Below the pieces are notes generated by a model that ran no database searches, was not told where the DNA came from, and saw nothing but the letters and a program-made list of their open reading frames with translations. From a virus, in IMG/VR virus record IMGVR_UViG_3300049847_000198, positions 32,001 through 96,000 of that record: DNA of 64,000 nucleotides; one strand, written 5' to 3'. The stretch's first letter is position 1. Every line of letters starts with the position of its first letter. Both the position numbers and the translations under genes were made by a program. Of this stretch, positions 55,876-63,586 are shown in pieces.

Positions 55876-56697
55876 CTACCGAAAGTAATTCATCGCTTTG
55901 ATTCCGACGTAAGCAAGGATGTCGCTCTCTCCGCGTTCTTTTGCGTCAAGAAAACGGTGCTTGCCTTCGATCACGAGAGGCCCGTCAATCGACATCGGAT
56001 ATCCAGAATCCACCATGATTGGACCAACGGAATTCGAGCGTCGGCAATACCTGTCCCCGATAATCGAGACATCGCTCATGTCGATCCGCTTCAGAAAGAA
56101 AACTTCTGAAGAAACAACGTCCACCGGGAAAACGTCTTGCATTAAACGGACTTGCCCTCCACTGATCGTTTCCGGGAGTTGAATTATTCCACAATTCAAG
56201 CACCTATCGAAACGAGTTCTCGCATTCTCAATTGCTTCGCACGGCTCATATCGCACGCACGGTTCTCCGCGAACAGCGGAAGAACTGACGCATCGCAAAT
56301 ACTTCGGAGGTATCAGGAAAATCTGCTTGAGATTTTCGATTGGCGGTGACTCGTATTTAGCCTGAGAGAGACCAGCCTCGTACTCGAAGTCTTTTTTGTC
56401 TCGAATACCACGAATCAAAGTCACATCAGAATTATGGAATTCGTCTCTTATTGATTTCAGGAACTCGGATATTTCACAAGCCTTAATGCTTAATCCGATC
56501 GGCATCATGCGAAGCAACATTTCGTATCGCTCAGCCTCGCTGTGCCGATGTCTTTTCGTTGGATGCTTTCCGATGATAACGAAAAACTTGTCGTAATCAT
56601 GGATCGACTGACAAACGATCCATTTGTGGCCAGCCGTAGGCGGATCAAAGCTGCCTGTAAAAACCCCGATGGTCACTTTTCTCTGACTCGTTACCAC
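55876..56697 (-). CDS. CoaD/PPAT-like nucleotidyltransferase fused to a C-terminal ParB/Srx-like domain
   Basis: TGSFDPPTAGH, LIRGIRDKKDFEYE, VSSSAVR; then PIMVD...VIEGKHRF.DAKERGESDILAYV. Confidence 0.75.
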   Translation of the reverse strand: MVTSQRKVTIGVFTGSFDPPTAGHKWIVCQSIHDYDKFFVIIGKHPTKRHRHSEAERYEMLLRMMPIGLSIKACEISEFLKSIRDEFHNSDVTLIRGIRDKKDFEYEAGLSQAKYESPPIENLKQIFLIPPKYLRCVSSSAVRGEPCVRYEPCEAIENARTRFDRCLNCGIIQLPETISGGQVRLMQDVFPVDVVSSEVFFLKRIDMSDVSIIGDRYCRRSNSVGPIMVDSGYPMSIDGPLVIEGKHRFLDAKERGESDILAYVGIKAMNYFR

Positions 56698-57572
56698 ATC
56701 GTTCCGATCTGATAAGCGTGGATTTCCTCATACGTCACAGGCTTCGTGCCGTAGCGTCCGCTTTTGATCGCTGCCGCAATCGACGCGACGTGGCAGGCTT
56801 CTTTCCAGCTTTCTCCAAGAAGACGCTCAACGACCAACGCGGAAATGAATTGGTCCCCAGCGCCAACGGTGTCCACGGGACGCTTGCAATACGCCTCGAT
56901 CAAGAACTCCATCTGATCTGACATTGCGGGATAGAAGGCGACGCCTCCTGCGCCCATCTTGAAAACCATGTCGTGCATCGTTCGATAGTTTTGGTCCGTG
57001 CAGATTTCTGAGTCACCGCCAACAATCACATGGCTGTTCATGGTTGGGTGCGTCGTCCTACACGGATCAATGAAAGTCGCCCATTGTTCTTGAGTAACCA
57101 GCTTCACGAGATCGCGATTCACGACGCCTTTGCCGTGGTCTTGGATAATGACTGCGTCAGGCTTGAACTCTTGGATTCGCTTAACGAACACTCGTGCGTC
57201 GTTTGCGTCACATTGATACCCGCAGTCCCGGTCGAACCGAGCAACGAGATGACGCTGCCCATCACGGATGTCGAAGTAGCGTTTCTTGACTGTTGTTGCA
57301 TGTTCTCCATTTGCGATCAGCTTTGTCTCGATGTCTCGTTGAATGCACTCGTCTGAAATTCTGCCGCCTTGACCGTCTTTTCCAACGACTCCGCACAGAA
57401 CAACTTCTGCTCCGAGAGCCTTGCACATCGCGGCGACGTTGCCGGCACCGCCAAGCGAGTATTCTTCGGACTGTTCCTCAAAAGCGATGACCGGGCCTTC
57501 TGAAGCAACCTTCTTCGCTTTGACGAAGATGTTGTGATCCAAAAGAACGTCTCCAAGAACGGCTATTCGCAT
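56691..57572 (-). CDS. Heptose-7-phosphate kinase-like (HldE/RfaE kinase domain, PfkB family)
   Basis: IAVLGDVLLD, LGGAGNVA, TTVKKR, IQDHGKGVV, DTVGAGDQF. Confidence 0.9.
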   Translation of the reverse strand: MRIAVLGDVLLDHNIFVKAKKVASEGPVIAFEEQSEEYSLGGAGNVAAMCKALGAEVVLCGVVGKDGQGGRISDECIQRDIETKLIANGEHATTVKKRYFDIRDGQRHLVARFDRDCGYQCDANDARVFVKRIQEFKPDAVIIQDHGKGVVNRDLVKLVTQEQWATFIDPCRTTHPTMNSHVIVGGDSEICTDQNYRTMHDMVFKMGAGGVAFYPAMSDQMEFLIEAYCKRPVDTVGAGDQFISALVVERLLGESWKEACHVASIAAAIKSGRYGTKPVTYEEIHAYQIGTMW

Positions 57573-57838
57573 CTCGCACATCCTCCGCAATGCTTGCGAA
57601 AAACGCGATCAAGACCACCAGACACAAAGTCTCGACGCAACGTAGCAATCGCAATCGCCATTAACTCCATGATCTCTTGGTGGTTCACCTCAAACTGCCG
57701 AACCTCTTTACCGAGTCGCGCAATCCGTTCTTGGACTTTCCAGTCAAGCGGATCATACCCACCACAAGCATCTGCCAGTTTCTTAGACGCCTTGCAGAAC
57801 TTCACTCCGTCAGAGTTCATGGCACGCCTCCATTCCAA
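57563..57838 (-). CDS. Hypothetical protein
   Basis: 91-aa ORF inside the cluster; start uncertain. Confidence 0.45.
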   Translation of the reverse strand: MEWRRAMNSDGVKFCKASKKLADACGGYDPLDWKVQERIARLGKEVRQFEVNHQEIMELMAIAIATLRRDFVSGGLDRVFRKHCGGCARCE

Positions 57839-61865: not shown

Positions 61866-62257
61866 TTCTGAATCATCTCCATCACCATCGGTCCCACCAC
61901 GTTCCAATCAACAAACGGTCTTCCGCCGCTTCTTGGGTTTGTCTTCAGCGGGCAACCAAACGCAGCATCGTCGATATAGAGATGCGCGTAACACTTCGGG
62001 GACGAAGTCCAAGAAGACTGTTCTGGATTCGAGTTGTGCGACCAGAACTCAATGCCACGCTCTTTGCACCACTCGATCGCTTCTGTCAGCGGATTGAATC
62101 CATCTTCCCTGCCGTCGCTTCGCATTGTCCAAAGAACCAGCTTCGCTCCGGCTTCTTGGAACTCCTTGAGATACTTAAACGCTTCGGGAACCTCGTTTCC
62201 GATCTCAGGAAATCGGTGGTCGCAAAGCGTGCCGTCAAAGTCGATCGCAATAATCAT
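61862..62257 (-). CDS. HAD-superfamily phosphatase
   Basis: IIAIDFDGTL, LWTMR, K.YAHLYIDD. Confidence 0.85.
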   Translation of the reverse strand: MIIAIDFDGTLCDHRFPEIGNEVPEAFKYLKEFQEAGAKLVLWTMRSDGREDGFNPLTEAIEWCKERGIEFWSHNSNPEQSSWTSSPKCYAHLYIDDAAFGCPLKTNPRSGGRPFVDWNVVGPMVMEMIQK

Positions 62258-63159
62258 CGCGGAGTCTTTCCGTGATTGAACGCCAATCTCTTCTGCGCCG
62301 CCTCAAAGATGTCCTCGGCGTCCGGTTCAGGTCCGTGATACTCAACGAAACTCCAGTCGTCTTTGTTCGCCTCCCAAGCGTCGTGGTGAATGTCGCTCAC
62401 CAGATACCAAGCGTTCGGATTCGGGATACAGCAGTGGACTGGTTGAATCTGACGGAACACGCCGAGACACGGAACGTCGGTAAACGAAGCCAGATGAAAC
62501 GGTCCTGAATCAACGCCGATCATCAAGTCGCTCATGTAATACAACGCACACAGCCAATCGAGACCGATGCGTCGCCAGTTCTTGTGCGTCTTCACTCGCT
62601 CATGCGGAAAAGACGGTTCCGACTTCACTGCGTTCAACTGCACGATGCTTCCGCCAGTTCGATCCAGCCACATCTCCATGAACTGCTTTGTTGTTGAATG
62701 GTCGAGGTTTTTCTTGGTTGAAAACGAATCTCCGCAGGTATGCAGCGCCATGATTGGTCGTGGCAAATCCTTGACGAATTCATCGACAGCGCAAGACGCC
62801 TCTTGTGAGATGCACCCATCAGAAACAATGCGAACATGACAAAGTTCTTTCCATGTCATTTCTGGATCGCCCAACGGAGGCATCAGTTCGTCATCAAGAC
62901 CTTGCATCGGCTTGTTTGTGACCCACACGGGCAGGTCCATATTGCCCCACGACTCGCGATAACGCCACTTGTGAAACGCCTCGGACGGATTCATCGGAAC
63001 ATGCCGCACTTCGGCGCAATCGAAAATGAAATCTCGATTTTGGTTCACGCTGACATGAATGTCGTATCCGCGTGCTTTGTAAAGCTGCAACAGGAACGCC
63101 ATGTGGACCGCGTCGCCCATGCCCGCCTCGAAACGGAAACGAATTTGCTTGTCAGGCAT
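62254..63159 (-). CDS. GT9 heptosyltransferase-like glycosyltransferase
   Basis: GMGDAV, SDLMIGVDSGPFHLASFTDVPCLGVF. Confidence 0.85.
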   Translation of the reverse strand: MPDKQIRFRFEAGMGDAVHMAFLLQLYKARGYDIHVSVNQNRDFIFDCAEVRHVPMNPSEAFHKWRYRESWGNMDLPVWVTNKPMQGLDDELMPPLGDPEMTWKELCHVRIVSDGCISQEASCAVDEFVKDLPRPIMALHTCGDSFSTKKNLDHSTTKQFMEMWLDRTGGSIVQLNAVKSEPSFPHERVKTHKNWRRIGLDWLCALYYMSDLMIGVDSGPFHLASFTDVPCLGVFRQIQPVHCCIPNPNAWYLVSDIHHDAWEANKDDWSFVEYHGPEPDAEDIFEAAQKRLAFNHGKTPR

Positions 63160-63586
63160 TCTTGATTCTTTCAATCATTTGAGTCGTGCTCTCGTCTGGG
63201 CCTTCGAGAAAAACAAGAGGAATCTCAAGTTCTCGGCACAACGCAATCTCAGGCATATTTGATTCGTTCCACGTATCAGGCTTGCCCTTAGGGAAGCCCT
63301 TAAAGACAAGGTTCGGCATCAACCTCCGAATCCAGTCCGATGGTTCGCTATCTGGCATCGGCACAACCAAATCAACGCAACGCAGCGACTCAATCATCTG
63401 CTTGCGAGTCGCAAACGGGACTATCGGACGAATCGATCCCTTTAATCGAGAAACCGATTCGTCCGTGTTTAGTCCAACAATCAACACGTCGCATTGCTGC
63501 TTGCATCGCTCAAGAAATGAAACGTGATGCGCTCCAAGCAAGTCGAAACAGCCGTTCGTGAATGCGACAAGGCGAGACATGTACAC
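63152..63586 (-). CDS. Heptose-1-phosphate adenylyltransferase-like (HldE/RfaE nucleotidyltransferase domain)
   Basis: FTNGCFDLLGAHHV, LIVGLNTDESVSRLKGSIRPI, LRCVDLV, STTQMIERI. Confidence 0.92.
   Translation of the reverse strand: MYMSRLVAFTNGCFDLLGAHHVSFLERCKQQCDVLIVGLNTDESVSRLKGSIRPIVPFATRKQMIESLRCVDLVVPMPDSEPSDWIRRLMPNLVFKGFPKGKPDTWNESNMPEIALCRELEIPLVFLEGPDESTTQMIERIKNA

What the first reader, a model, noticed from the sequence alone, without database searches (positions are those of the whole stretch)
55876..63586. Phage-encoded ADP-heptose synthesis and transfer cluster: candidate virion (or DNA) heptosylation system
Seen in one co-oriented run: a split HldE (adenylyltransferase 63152-63586, kinase 56691-57572), two HAD phosphatases (one fused to a PRTase), two GT9 transferases, two SAM methyltransferases and a CoaD-ParB fusion. 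The GT9 at 61071 ends in CxxC-x10-C-x4-C. Established: kinase, phosphatase and adenylyltransferase convert heptose-7-P to ADP-heptose. GT9 enzymes use it, and the protein heptosyltransferases TibC/Aah carry a four-Cys iron motif, although some LPS GT9s have similar Cys motifs. No GmhA or HldD is in the window. Inference: the phage builds a methylated heptose glycan on its Ser/Thr-rich fibres. Alternatives are remodelling host LPS for exclusion or hypermodifying DNA.
Basis: partly seen in the sequence, partly recalled or inferred. Interest (0 to 1): 0.8.

Follow-up and report, generated by a model that had tools for sequence, protein, structure and literature searches.

The report
Phage heptose-glycan assembly operon
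An uncultured 112-kb phage carries a tightly packed operon that most likely makes activated heptose sugar and builds a methylated, heptose-containing glycan; the target is probably its own serine/threonine-rich particle proteins, but that target is not proven.

Summary
On the minus strand of 55876-63586 lie the following genes:
- an HldE-type heptose kinase and a separate HldE-type nucleotidyltransferase
- a small HAD phosphatase
- two very divergent GT9 transferases
- two SAM methyltransferases
- a PRTase-HAD fusion
- a CoaD-like nucleotidyltransferase

The 4-Cys motif in the GT9 at 61071 is real. It is invariant or nearly so across that GT9 subfamily.

- An HNH homing endonuclease sits inside the cluster.
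- The cluster runs on beyond the window to a 919-aa GT2+TOD1/MUCI70 transferase.
- The PRTase-HAD protein occurs elsewhere fused to each GT9 type. It is therefore a glycan-building partner, most likely a PRPP-dependent ribosyl transferase plus phosphatase.

The same module recurs in other uncultured phages and in planctomycete (Schlesneria) MAG contigs. In several of these it lies next to tail genes or next to proteins with long Ser-rich tracts. In one phage lineage a Cys-finger GT9 lies directly after the major head gene.

Evidence on the target is circumstantial. The record has no hydroxymethylase or TET gene for DNA glycosylation, no glycan export or priming genes, and no integrase. This favours virion protein as acceptor (about 45%) over host envelope glycan (about 30%).

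Viral heptose genes and phage virion glycosylation are each already known. This is a new variant of those.

The parts
63152..63586 (-). HldE domain-II-type heptose-1-P nucleotidyltransferase (144 aa). Its HxGH signature reads G-A-H-H.
   Evidence: TIGR02199 2.3e-31 and phrog_7878. Alignment with four relatives that all have HxGH. DNA checked.
62254..63174 (-). GT9 transferase #2 (gene-caller start 63159, 301 aa), with a DSGxxH donor motif.
   Evidence: PF01075 3.1e-5; phrog_24975 5e-45. Homologues fused to Methyltransf_24 (P0288) and to PRTase-HAD (L116:8477-10804).
61862..62257 (-). Small capless HAD phosphatase (131 aa). Candidate GmhB analogue.
   Evidence: NF046079 BT0820 family 6e-27; phrog_1238 5e-29; DxD motif.
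61071..61907 (-). GT9 transferase #1 (gene-caller start 61865, 264 aa), with a C-terminal 4-Cys finger.
   Evidence: PF01075 2.3e-10. AF2 model pLDDT 90.8. VIA Z: 18.3 WaaF, 18.2 3tov, 16.9 TibC. Cys conserved in A3.
60859..61083 (-). 74-aa ORF between GT9 #1 and PRTase-HAD. Unknown; may not be a gene.
   Evidence: No family hit. The natural fusion P0012 has no counterpart of it.
59970..60866 (-). PRTase-HAD fusion (298 aa). Candidate PRPP-dependent glycan phosphoribosyltransferase plus 5-phosphatase.
   Evidence: The profile hits purine PRTases, with a PRPP loop VVDD and a HAD DxDGVL motif. AF2 pLDDT 88.7. XGPRT Z 13.4; T4 Pnkp phosphatase Z 12.4. Fused to GT9s in P0012 and L116.
59392..60060 (-). 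SAM methyltransferase (Methyltransf_11).
   Evidence: PF08241 3.5e-9. The same domain sits inside the 1367-aa GT9+MT+GT2 protein of L041.
58484..59395 (-). HNH homing endonuclease. A mobile insert, not a pathway step.
   Evidence: phrog_374 1e-60; phrog_3377 6e-55.
57817..58473 (-). SAM methyltransferase (Methyltransf_24).
   Evidence: PF13578 5.6e-9. The same domain is fused to GT9s in P0033, P0069 and P0288.
57563..57838 (-). 91-aa ORF, unknown.
   Evidence: Only a sub-threshold HTH_DeoR hit.
56691..57590 (-). HldE domain-I-type heptose-7-P kinase (PfkB). Likely start at 57572.
   Evidence: TIGR02198 1.5e-41; PF00294 7.7e-24. Best PDB match HldA 4e84, 1e-12.
55876..56697 (-). CoaD/PPAT-like nucleotidyltransferase (residues 1-145, TxGH motif intact) plus a 130-aa C-terminal domain of unknown fold.
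   Evidence: TIGR01510 3.7e-22; PPAT structures 2e-10. ParB-like claim unproven.
63632..64000 (-). 3' part of a 210-aa gene that runs off the window. It has a signal-peptide-like N-terminus and is the first of the upstream genes of the same run.
   Evidence: Further upstream lie genes of 252 aa (DxD-like motif), 373 aa, 919 aa (GT2+TOD1/MUCI70), 549 aa and 295 aa.
49001..52501 (-). 1166-aa protein, 33% Ser+Thr and 6% charged residues, beta-helix-like. Candidate acceptor.
   Evidence: The nearest Atlas clusters are viral, including 'parallel beta-helix repeat' at 0.96-0.97.
46324..48513 (-). 729-aa protein, 29% Ser+Thr, about 18 copies of a 22-residue repeat. Candidate acceptor.

Best explanation
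The run is one operon that supplies and uses an activated heptose.

Supply (inferred from family matches):
- The PfkB kinase phosphorylates host-made D-glycero-D-manno-heptose-7-P at C1.
- The small HAD removes the 7-phosphate.
- A nucleotidyltransferase makes ADP-D,D-heptose. No epimerase is present, so the product is the D,D form.

Use (partly shown by gene fusions, otherwise inferred):
- The two Cys-finger GT9 enzymes transfer heptose.
- The PRTase-HAD protein, which works physically with the GT9s, adds ribose-5-P from PRPP and removes the phosphate.
- The two methyltransferases O-methylate the sugars.
- The upstream GT2+TOD1/MUCI70 protein and neighbouring genes add further residues.

All of these proteins appear soluble. 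The record has no priming, flipping or export genes. The glycan is therefore most likely built in the cytoplasm directly on Ser/Thr-rich phage particle proteins, forming a glycan coat. The nearby 1166-aa and 729-aa proteins are the candidates.
For: Pathway:
- The best family and structure matches are HldE/HldA kinase, the HldE nucleotidyltransferase domain and GT9, each with a clear margin over the next family.
- Viral HldE-type enzymes have been shown to make ADP-heptose in vitro (Tang et al. 2024, as summarised in PMC11461863 and PMC11573728).

Module conservation. The kinase + nucleotidyltransferase + Cys-finger GT9 core recurs with various partners:
- phage contig L005: with a TOD1-like stretch and an FkbM methyltransferase
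- phage contig L006: with a short TOD1-like match, an FkbM methyltransferase and an MT11-like stretch
- Schlesneria MAG contig L041: with PRTase-HAD, MT11 and GT2
- Schlesneria MAG contig L116: with PRTase-HAD

Fusions:
- GT9#1-like + PRTase-HAD (P0012; 53% identity over the whole PRTase-HAD).
- GT9#2-like + PRTase-HAD (L116, 775 aa).
- GT9 + methyltransferase, in several proteins.

PRPP-dependent ribofuranosyl transfer by a PRTase-like module plus a HAD phosphatase is established chemistry (PMC11231755, PMC10299916, PMC11294581).

Acceptor:
- A Cys-finger GT9 lies directly after the major head protein gene in L012. Sister contigs L023 and L025 show the same ORF order.
- L005: the tail-module protein with a ~300-residue (Ser-Gly)n tract lies immediately upstream of the GT gene.
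- L116: a 784-aa protein with a ~330-residue Ser-rich tract lies about 1.4 kb upstream of the module.
- In cultured cyanophage S-SSM7 the kinase, nucleotidyltransferase and small HAD lie between tail-fibre and neck genes.
- The record lacks ThyA-like hydroxymethylase, TET/JBP, a phosphoglycosyl transferase, ABC-2 permease, Wzx and integrase.
- The cluster, like the terminase and Ser/Thr-rich genes, lacks the GAAAGGCAA ribosome-site tag of the early/replication genes.
Against: - No direct evidence for any acceptor.
- The Ser-tract co-occurrence is underpowered: 2 of 4 full-module loci against 8 of 107 other loci, at a threshold chosen after the fact.
- Kinase and nucleotidyltransferase score below NCBIfam equivalog cut-offs, so the sugar could be a related one.
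- The HldE-type nucleotidyltransferase has G-A-H-H where four relatives have HxGH. It may be impaired or atypical.
- GmhA is absent, so the pathway depends on the host or on the missing 21% of the genome.
- GT9#1 is structurally no closer to the protein heptosyltransferase TibC than to LPS enzymes.
- The PRTase-HAD protein is not a detectable member of the canonical ribofuranosyltransferase family: the domain order is reversed and 7shg is not among the top 50 structural matches.
- The same module exists in planctomycete MAG contigs, where its product may be an envelope glycan.
- The Ser/Thr-rich proteins are not shown to be virion components.
Confidence: 0.45

Rival explanations
1. Host-envelope remodelling. 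The module was captured from planctomycete hosts. During infection it keeps up or alters a host surface glycan (LPS core, O-chain, capsule or surface glycoprotein), using host carriers and exporters. The effect would be to block superinfection or keep the cell intact.
For: - The same gene set occurs on Schlesneria MAG contigs (L041 on an 89-kb scaffold).
- GT9 #1 is structurally closest to WaaF (Z 18.3).
- Cyanophage heptose genes are conventionally annotated as LPS genes (PMC7378029).
- The upstream 210-aa protein has a signal-peptide-like N-terminus.
Against: - The record has no priming transferase, flippase, ABC-2 permease or integrase.
- A host that already makes heptose-7-P normally also makes ADP-heptose.
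- Cys-finger GT9 genes sit inside head and tail gene modules in other phages.
- L041 sits beside mobile-element genes (Replic_Relax), and L116 may itself be a phage contig, so 'host' copies are not certain.
Confidence: 0.3
2. DNA hypermodification. The transferases build a heptose-containing glycan on a modified base of phage DNA to evade restriction.
For: - Phage glycosyltransferases do hypermodify DNA with varied glycans (Pyle et al. 2024, cited in PMC12619734).
- YerA41 carries an ~1-kDa probable oligosaccharide on thymidine (PMC9023294).
- The HAD domain of the PRTase-HAD protein resembles the T4 Pnkp 3'-phosphatase (Z 12.4).
Against: - The 112-kb record has no thymidylate-synthase-like hydroxymethylase and no TET/JBP.
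- GT9 enzymes are not known on DNA.
- The module's neighbours elsewhere are head and tail genes, not replication genes.
Confidence: 0.07
3. Free metabolite. The operon makes a soluble heptose-containing nucleoside-type compound or signalling nucleotide-sugar rather than decorating a macromolecule. The PRTase-HAD protein would make a nucleoside from a base.
For: - The PRTase domain is closest to purine PRTases.
- ADP-heptose feeds natural products such as septacidin (PMC11461863).
- A CoaD-like nucleotidyltransferase of unknown substrate is present.
Against: - Capless HAD domains and multi-transferase fusions (GT9+GT9+MT+GT2 in L041) are typical of polymer or glycoconjugate assembly.
- There are no tailoring enzymes typical of nucleoside antibiotics, and no exporter.
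Confidence: 0.08

Closest known systems
Bacterial ADP-heptose pathway (GmhA, HldE or HldA/HldC, GmhB, HldD) and the viral 'heptose biosynthetic enzymes' of Tang et al. 2024
   Same: - Split kinase and nucleotidyltransferase, with best matches to HldE domains I and II and to HldA.
- A HAD phosphatase in the same operon.
- Cultured cyanophage S-SSM7 has the same trio.
   Different: - No GmhA or HldD in the record.
- The phosphatase is a BT0820-type mini-HAD, not GmhB. The commentaries say the phosphatase is absent from viruses (PMC11461863).
- The scores are below equivalog cut-offs.
- The nucleotidyltransferase has GxHH instead of HxGH.
Autotransporter heptosyltransferases TibC/AAH (BAHT family)
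   Same: - GT9-type GT-B fold (Z 16.9, 239 residues aligned).
- A four-Cys metal-finger-like insert shortly before the C-terminus.
- Ser/Thr-rich beta-helix-like candidate substrates encoded nearby.
   Different: - No detectable sequence relationship.
- No N-terminal beta-barrel.
- Cys spacing is CxxC-x10-C-x4-C, against C339/C342/C358/C370 in TibC (PMC4358343).
- Metal and oligomer state are unknown.
- Equally similar to WaaF and WaaC.
PRPP-dependent ribofuranosyltransferases (PRP + gPRT; Klebsiella O4/O7, Salmonella T1 STM0726, Hib Bcs3 CriT/CrpP, structure 7shg)
   Same: - A PRTase-fold module with a PRPP loop, joined to a HAD phosphatase.
- It works with partner glycosyltransferases, here shown by fusions to GT9 (PMC11294581, PMC10299916).
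   Different: - Domain order is reversed (PRTase at the N-terminus, HAD at the C-terminus).
- The PRTase is a compact XGPRT-like domain, and the HAD is Pnkp-like.
- 7shg and Bcs3 are not among the top structural matches.
- Activity is untested.
Mycobacteriophage virion glycosylation (Che8 and relatives; Freeman et al. 2023, as cited in PMC11256854 and PMC12619734)
   Same: Phage-encoded cytoplasmic glycosyltransferases proposed to decorate structural proteins with a glycan shield.
   Different: - Different transferase families.
- No nucleotide-sugar supply genes there.
- A different host phylum.
- Here nothing has been shown experimentally.

Membership tests
HldE domain I / HldA heptose-7-phosphate kinase (TIGR02198) | PfkB/ribokinase fold, with the best match to the heptose kinase rather than to other sugar kinases | tested here: met
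   TIGR02198 1.5e-41 against ribokinase 1.2e-17. Top PDB match HldA 4e84 at 1e-12 against ribokinases at 1e-7.
HldE domain I / HldA heptose-7-phosphate kinase (TIGR02198) | Score above the curated equivalog cut-off | tested here: not met
   142.5 bits against a cut-off of 345.
HldE domain II / HldC heptose-1-phosphate adenylyltransferase (TIGR02199) | Best family match over the full length, with the C-terminal STT motif | tested here: met
   TIGR02199 2.3e-31 over residues 5-142; next best is TagD at 1e-12. STT is invariant in A4.
HldE domain II / HldC heptose-1-phosphate adenylyltransferase (TIGR02199) | HxGH nucleotidyltransferase signature and a score above the equivalog cut-off | tested here: not met
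   The motif reads G-A-H-H where four relatives have H-x-G-H. 108.6 bits against a cut-off of 181.5.
Glycosyltransferase family 9 | GT-B fold matching solved GT9 enzymes, and the D(S/T)GxxH donor-site motif | tested here: met
   PF01075 above the cut-off for both proteins. For GT9 #1: Z 18.3 WaaF, 18.2 3tov, 15.8 WaaC. Motifs IDSGYAH and VDSGPFH.
BAHT protein heptosyltransferases (TibC/AAH) | Specific sequence relationship to TibC/AAH, an N-terminal beta-barrel, and an iron finger with TibC spacing | tested here: not met
   The profile of the subfamily does not hit TibC at E<=1. The protein is only 264 aa and aligns to TibC residues 95-388, so it has no barrel. The Cys spacing differs (PMC4358343).
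BAHT protein heptosyltransferases (TibC/AAH) | Transfers heptose to Ser of a beta-helical protein; binds iron; forms a dodecamer | not testable with these tools
   Needs biochemistry.
Canonical glycan ribofuranosyltransferases (PRP-gPRT, 7shg type) | N-terminal PRP phosphatase plus C-terminal gPRT, with detectable similarity to the prototype | tested here: inconclusive
   Both chemistries are present but in reverse order. 7shg is absent from the top 50 of Foldseek and of VIA wide. No sequence hit.
GmhB heptose-1,7-bisphosphate phosphatase | HAD subfamily IIIA GmhB/HisB-type sequence | tested here: not met
   The small HAD matches the BT0820 family, not GmhB. Its role as a GmhB analogue is inferred from position only.
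ParB/Srx domain (C-terminal half of the CoaD-like protein) | Significant match to ParB_N | tested here: inconclusive
   No Pfam hit at 0.01. Pairwise E 1.3 to the phage's own ParB-like protein. Atlas score 0.79 with ParB_N in 18% of one cluster.

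The most novel reading that the evidence does not exclude
Phages coat their own particles with heptose.
- A widespread, uncharacterised Cys-finger GT9 subfamily would be a viral and planctomycete protein O-heptosyltransferase.
- Together with a reversed-order PRTase-HAD ribosyl transferase, it would polymerise a methylated heptose-ribofuranose glycan on poly-Ser/Thr fibres or head proteins.
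- This would give the long-unexplained viral heptose genes a function.
Probability: 0.3. Interest if true: 0.8.

Novelty: new variant of a known kind. Interest (0 to 1): 0.6.

Why it matters
- Viral heptose-synthesis enzymes were shown to be active in 2024. The commentaries state that their role in viruses is unsolved (PMC11573728). This operon puts the supply genes next to their likely users (two GT9s, methyltransferases, a ribosyl-transfer candidate) and next to candidate acceptors, so the question becomes directly testable by co-expression.
- It defines a Cys-finger GT9 subfamily that sits in phage head and tail modules.
- It points to a large uncharacterised PRTase-HAD family (thousands of proteins in bacteria and archaea) as a possible second type of PRPP-dependent glycan ribosyltransferase.
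- If virions are heptosylated, that would be a new kind of phage surface chemistry, with consequences for adsorption, stability and immune recognition.

Tried and rejected
- Megablast of the cluster, and tblastn of GT9 #1, GT9 #2 and the 729-aa protein against cultured phages, found nothing. The 1166-aa protein gave only a partial hit in Limnohabitans phage DC31.
- Single-protein scans of viral contigs found nothing. An alignment query was needed.
The contexts of P0010-P0016 and of the 21.5-kb ENA contig that holds orthologues of both GT9 #2 and PRTase-HAD could therefore not be read.
- TibC-specific kinship: rejected.
- Canonical ribofuranosyltransferase membership: not shown.
- ParB domain: not shown.
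- DNA-modification prerequisites: absent.
- Promoter and terminator scans were at chance level.
- Similarity between the upstream Cys-rich 549-aa and 295-aa proteins and the L005 tail protein was not significant.
- A GT9 phylogeny against WaaC, WaaF and TibC was not attempted.
- The STTR5 rule for CDP/UDP-heptose could not be applied cleanly, because the motif spacing differs in this clade.
- The Ser-tract co-occurrence statistic is underpowered.

Full report
**Where it lies.** The window is positions 32001-96000 of a 112,081-bp IMG/VR virus record with an estimated completeness of 79%. The phage is very divergent, and no nucleotide match exists among 50,697 phage records. Recognisable genes include a large terminase (43504-45447), a helicase, an Erf-like annealing protein, an exonuclease, a sliding clamp and a weak head-tail adaptor.

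**Observation.**
- The kinase and the small nucleotidyltransferase match the two HldE domains far better than any other family, although below NCBIfam equivalog cut-offs. The kinase's best solved relative is the Burkholderia heptose-7-P kinase HldA.
- Both GT9 proteins pass the Pfam cut-off and are the only GT9 genes in the record.
- The 4-Cys motif is present.
- No GmhA (SIS) or HldD-type epimerase occurs anywhere in the 112 kb.
- Gene starts from the gene caller (P0005, P0281) give 4-8-nt overlaps between neighbours, so the run is a translationally coupled operon.

**Additions to the observation.**
- 58484-59395 is an HNH homing endonuclease.
- The run continues beyond the window. The further genes are of 210 aa (signal-peptide-like N-terminus), 252 aa, 373 aa, 919 aa (GT2 plus TOD1/MUCI70 glycosyltransferase-like domains), 549 aa (Cys-rich) and 295 aa.

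**The GT9 enzymes.**
- An exhaustive search with GT9 #1 found 360 cluster representatives. The four Cys are invariant or nearly so in 36 aligned members, including phage copies.
- The AlphaFold model (pLDDT 90.8) is a compact GT9 GT-B fold. Its VIA Z-scores are WaaF 18.3, Veillonella GT9 18.2, TibC 16.9 and WaaC 15.8.
- A profile of the subfamily finds WaaF (1.6e-10) and WaaC but not TibC. TibC's iron finger uses C339, C342, C358 and C370 (PMC4358343), a different spacing.
- The Cys finger is therefore a subfamily hallmark. It lies just before the C-terminal helix, probably the same region as TibC's finger; that placement is an inference from the aligned ranges only. It does not show kinship with the protein heptosyltransferases.
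- GT9 #2 has few relatives, the nearest named one from a Planctomycetes MAG.

**Fusions that tie the parts together.**
- P0012 is GT9 #1-like (38% identity) fused to the entire PRTase-HAD protein (53% identity over 298 residues).
- In L116 a 775-aa ORF joins a GT9 #2-like domain (39%) to PRTase-HAD (38%).
- GT9 domains are fused to Methyltransf_24 in P0033, P0069 and P0288.
- In L005 a GT9 is fused to an FkbM methyltransferase, with a TOD1-like stretch at the N-terminus.
- In L041 one 1367-aa protein combines GT9, Methyltransf_11 and GT2.
- These natural fusions are the strongest evidence that the GT9s, the methyltransferases, the PRTase-HAD protein and a GT2/TOD1 transferase act on one product.

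**The PRTase-HAD protein.**
- It belongs to a large family: 3329 hits, and at least 584 loci among 600 pattern matches, a capped count, in species-representative genomes from Mesorhizobium to Halorubrum.
- The N-domain is a purine-PRTase-like fold with the acidic PRPP loop. The C-domain is a capless HAD with DxDGVL, closest to the T4 Pnkp 3'-phosphatase.
- Known bacterial ribofuranosyltransferases combine exactly these two chemistries. A PRTase-like module transfers ribose-5-P from PRPP to a glycan, and a HAD module removes the 5-phosphate (PMC11231755, PMC10299916, PMC11294581).
- Those enzymes have the opposite domain order, and the prototype 7shg is not among the top structural matches.
- I therefore propose the same mechanism by analogy and by the GT9 fusions. 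I do not propose membership of that family.

**Recurrence of the module.**
- Viral contig L005 reads: tape-measure protein, then a 1099-aa protein carrying a ~300-residue (Ser-Gly)n tract, then the TOD1-like+GT9+FkbM fusion, then kinase, then nucleotidyltransferase.
- L006 has a short TOD1-like match, GT9, an FkbM methyltransferase, nucleotidyltransferase, an MT11-like stretch and kinase.
- L116, binned as Schlesneria, has GT9, nucleotidyltransferase, the GT9+PRTase-HAD fusion and kinase. About 1.4 kb upstream of this module lies a 784-aa protein with a ~330-residue Ser-rich tract.
- L041, an 89-kb Schlesneria scaffold, has a fused HldE, the 1367-aa multi-transferase and PRTase-HAD. It lies beside a protein with poly-Ser runs and a replication-relaxation gene.
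- In L012 a Cys-finger GT9 lies directly after the major head protein gene, inside the order terminase, portal/adaptor, head, GT9, virion structural protein. L023 and L025 show the same ORF order. About 15 further contigs carry the same GT9 match, but I did not read their contexts.
- Cultured cyanophage S-SSM7 has the nucleotidyltransferase, the kinase, a small HAD annotated 'phosphoheptose isomerase' and an epimerase between tail-fibre and neck genes.

**Acceptor.**
- For DNA: the record lacks a ThyA-like hydroxymethylase and TET/JBP.
- For envelope glycans: it lacks a phosphoglycosyl transferase, ABC-2 permease, Wzx and integrase. Host functions could substitute for these.
- For virion proteins:
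  - the placements above;
  - two extreme Ser/Thr-rich proteins 3.4-9.6 kb downstream, the larger of which resembles viral parallel beta-helix proteins by language-model features only;
  - the cluster shares with the terminase and Ser/Thr-rich genes the absence of the GAAAGGCAA ribosome-site tag that marks early genes.
- A crude co-occurrence test is underpowered.

**Cautions.**
- The HldE-type nucleotidyltransferase reads G-A-H-H where four relatives have HxGH. From my own knowledge of this superfamily, both histidines contribute to catalysis, so the enzyme may be weakened.
- The CoaD-like protein at the operon's end has an intact TxGH motif and might act as an alternative adenylyltransferase. 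That is speculation.
- The sugar identity, the methylation sites and the ribose step are all inferred.

**Comparison with what is known.**
- Viral heptose biosynthetic enzymes are known and active in vitro, with unknown role (PMC11461863, PMC11573728).
- Cyanophage copies are annotated as LPS genes (PMC7378029).
- Phage virion glycosylation is known in mycobacteriophages (PMC11256854, PMC12619734).
- New here are the full transfer machinery next to the supply genes, the Cys-finger GT9 subfamily in phage structural modules, the GT9/PRTase-HAD coupling, and the recurrent neighbourhood of Ser-rich proteins.

**Verdict.** This is a new variant of a known kind. Interest is 0.6.

Noticed in passing
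window 58484-59395 (-); also 29275-30759 (+): HNH homing endonuclease genes. One is inserted between the two methyltransferase genes of the glycan operon. L006 also has an HNH gene near its heptose module.
   Followed up: partly
window 63533-63535 and 63527-63529 (residues 18 and 20 of the 144-aa nucleotidyltransferase): The HxGH signature of the nucleotidyltransferase superfamily is permuted to G-A-H-H. Four relatives keep HxGH.
   Followed up: partly
window 59970-60866; loci L039-L118: The PRTase-HAD fusion family has thousands of members in bacteria and archaea (many Mesorhizobium, haloarchaea, Planctomycetes). No characterised member was found. Its domain order is the reverse of the known ribofuranosyltransferases.
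   Followed up: partly
L038:15682-16017 (S-SSM7 gp130); phrog_1238: The annotation 'phosphoheptose isomerase' looks like a misnomer. These proteins carry a HAD DxD motif and match a HAD phosphatase family, not the SIS isomerase.
   Followed up: partly
L005:6082-9381 and L116:3173-5527: Tail-region proteins with ~300-residue (Ser-Gly)n or poly-Ser tracts followed by a small Cys-containing C-terminal domain. Each lies next to a heptose/GT9 module.
   Followed up: partly
L002:6849-8498 (-) and L002:1632-2264 (-), i.e. genome 100849-102498 and 95632-96264: A 549-aa Cys-rich protein and a 210-aa protein with a signal-peptide-like N-terminus lie within the same co-oriented run. There are no family hits. 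The C-terminal motif of the 549-aa protein faintly resembles that of the L005 tail protein (not significant).
   Followed up: partly
window 46324-48513 (-): About 18 tandem copies of a 22-residue Ser/Thr-rich repeat at the protein level. The DNA repeats are too diverged for Tandem Repeats Finder.
   Followed up: partly
window 43500-64000: The exact GAAAGGCAA ribosome-site tag, common before genes up to ~43.4 kb, is absent from the terminase, Ser/Thr-rich and glycan genes.
   Followed up: partly
L041:5471-9574 (-): A 1367-aa planctomycete protein combines two GT9 stretches, a Methyltransf_11 domain and a GT2 domain. It lies beside a fused HldE and a Replic_Relax gene, possibly on a mobile element.
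   Followed up: no
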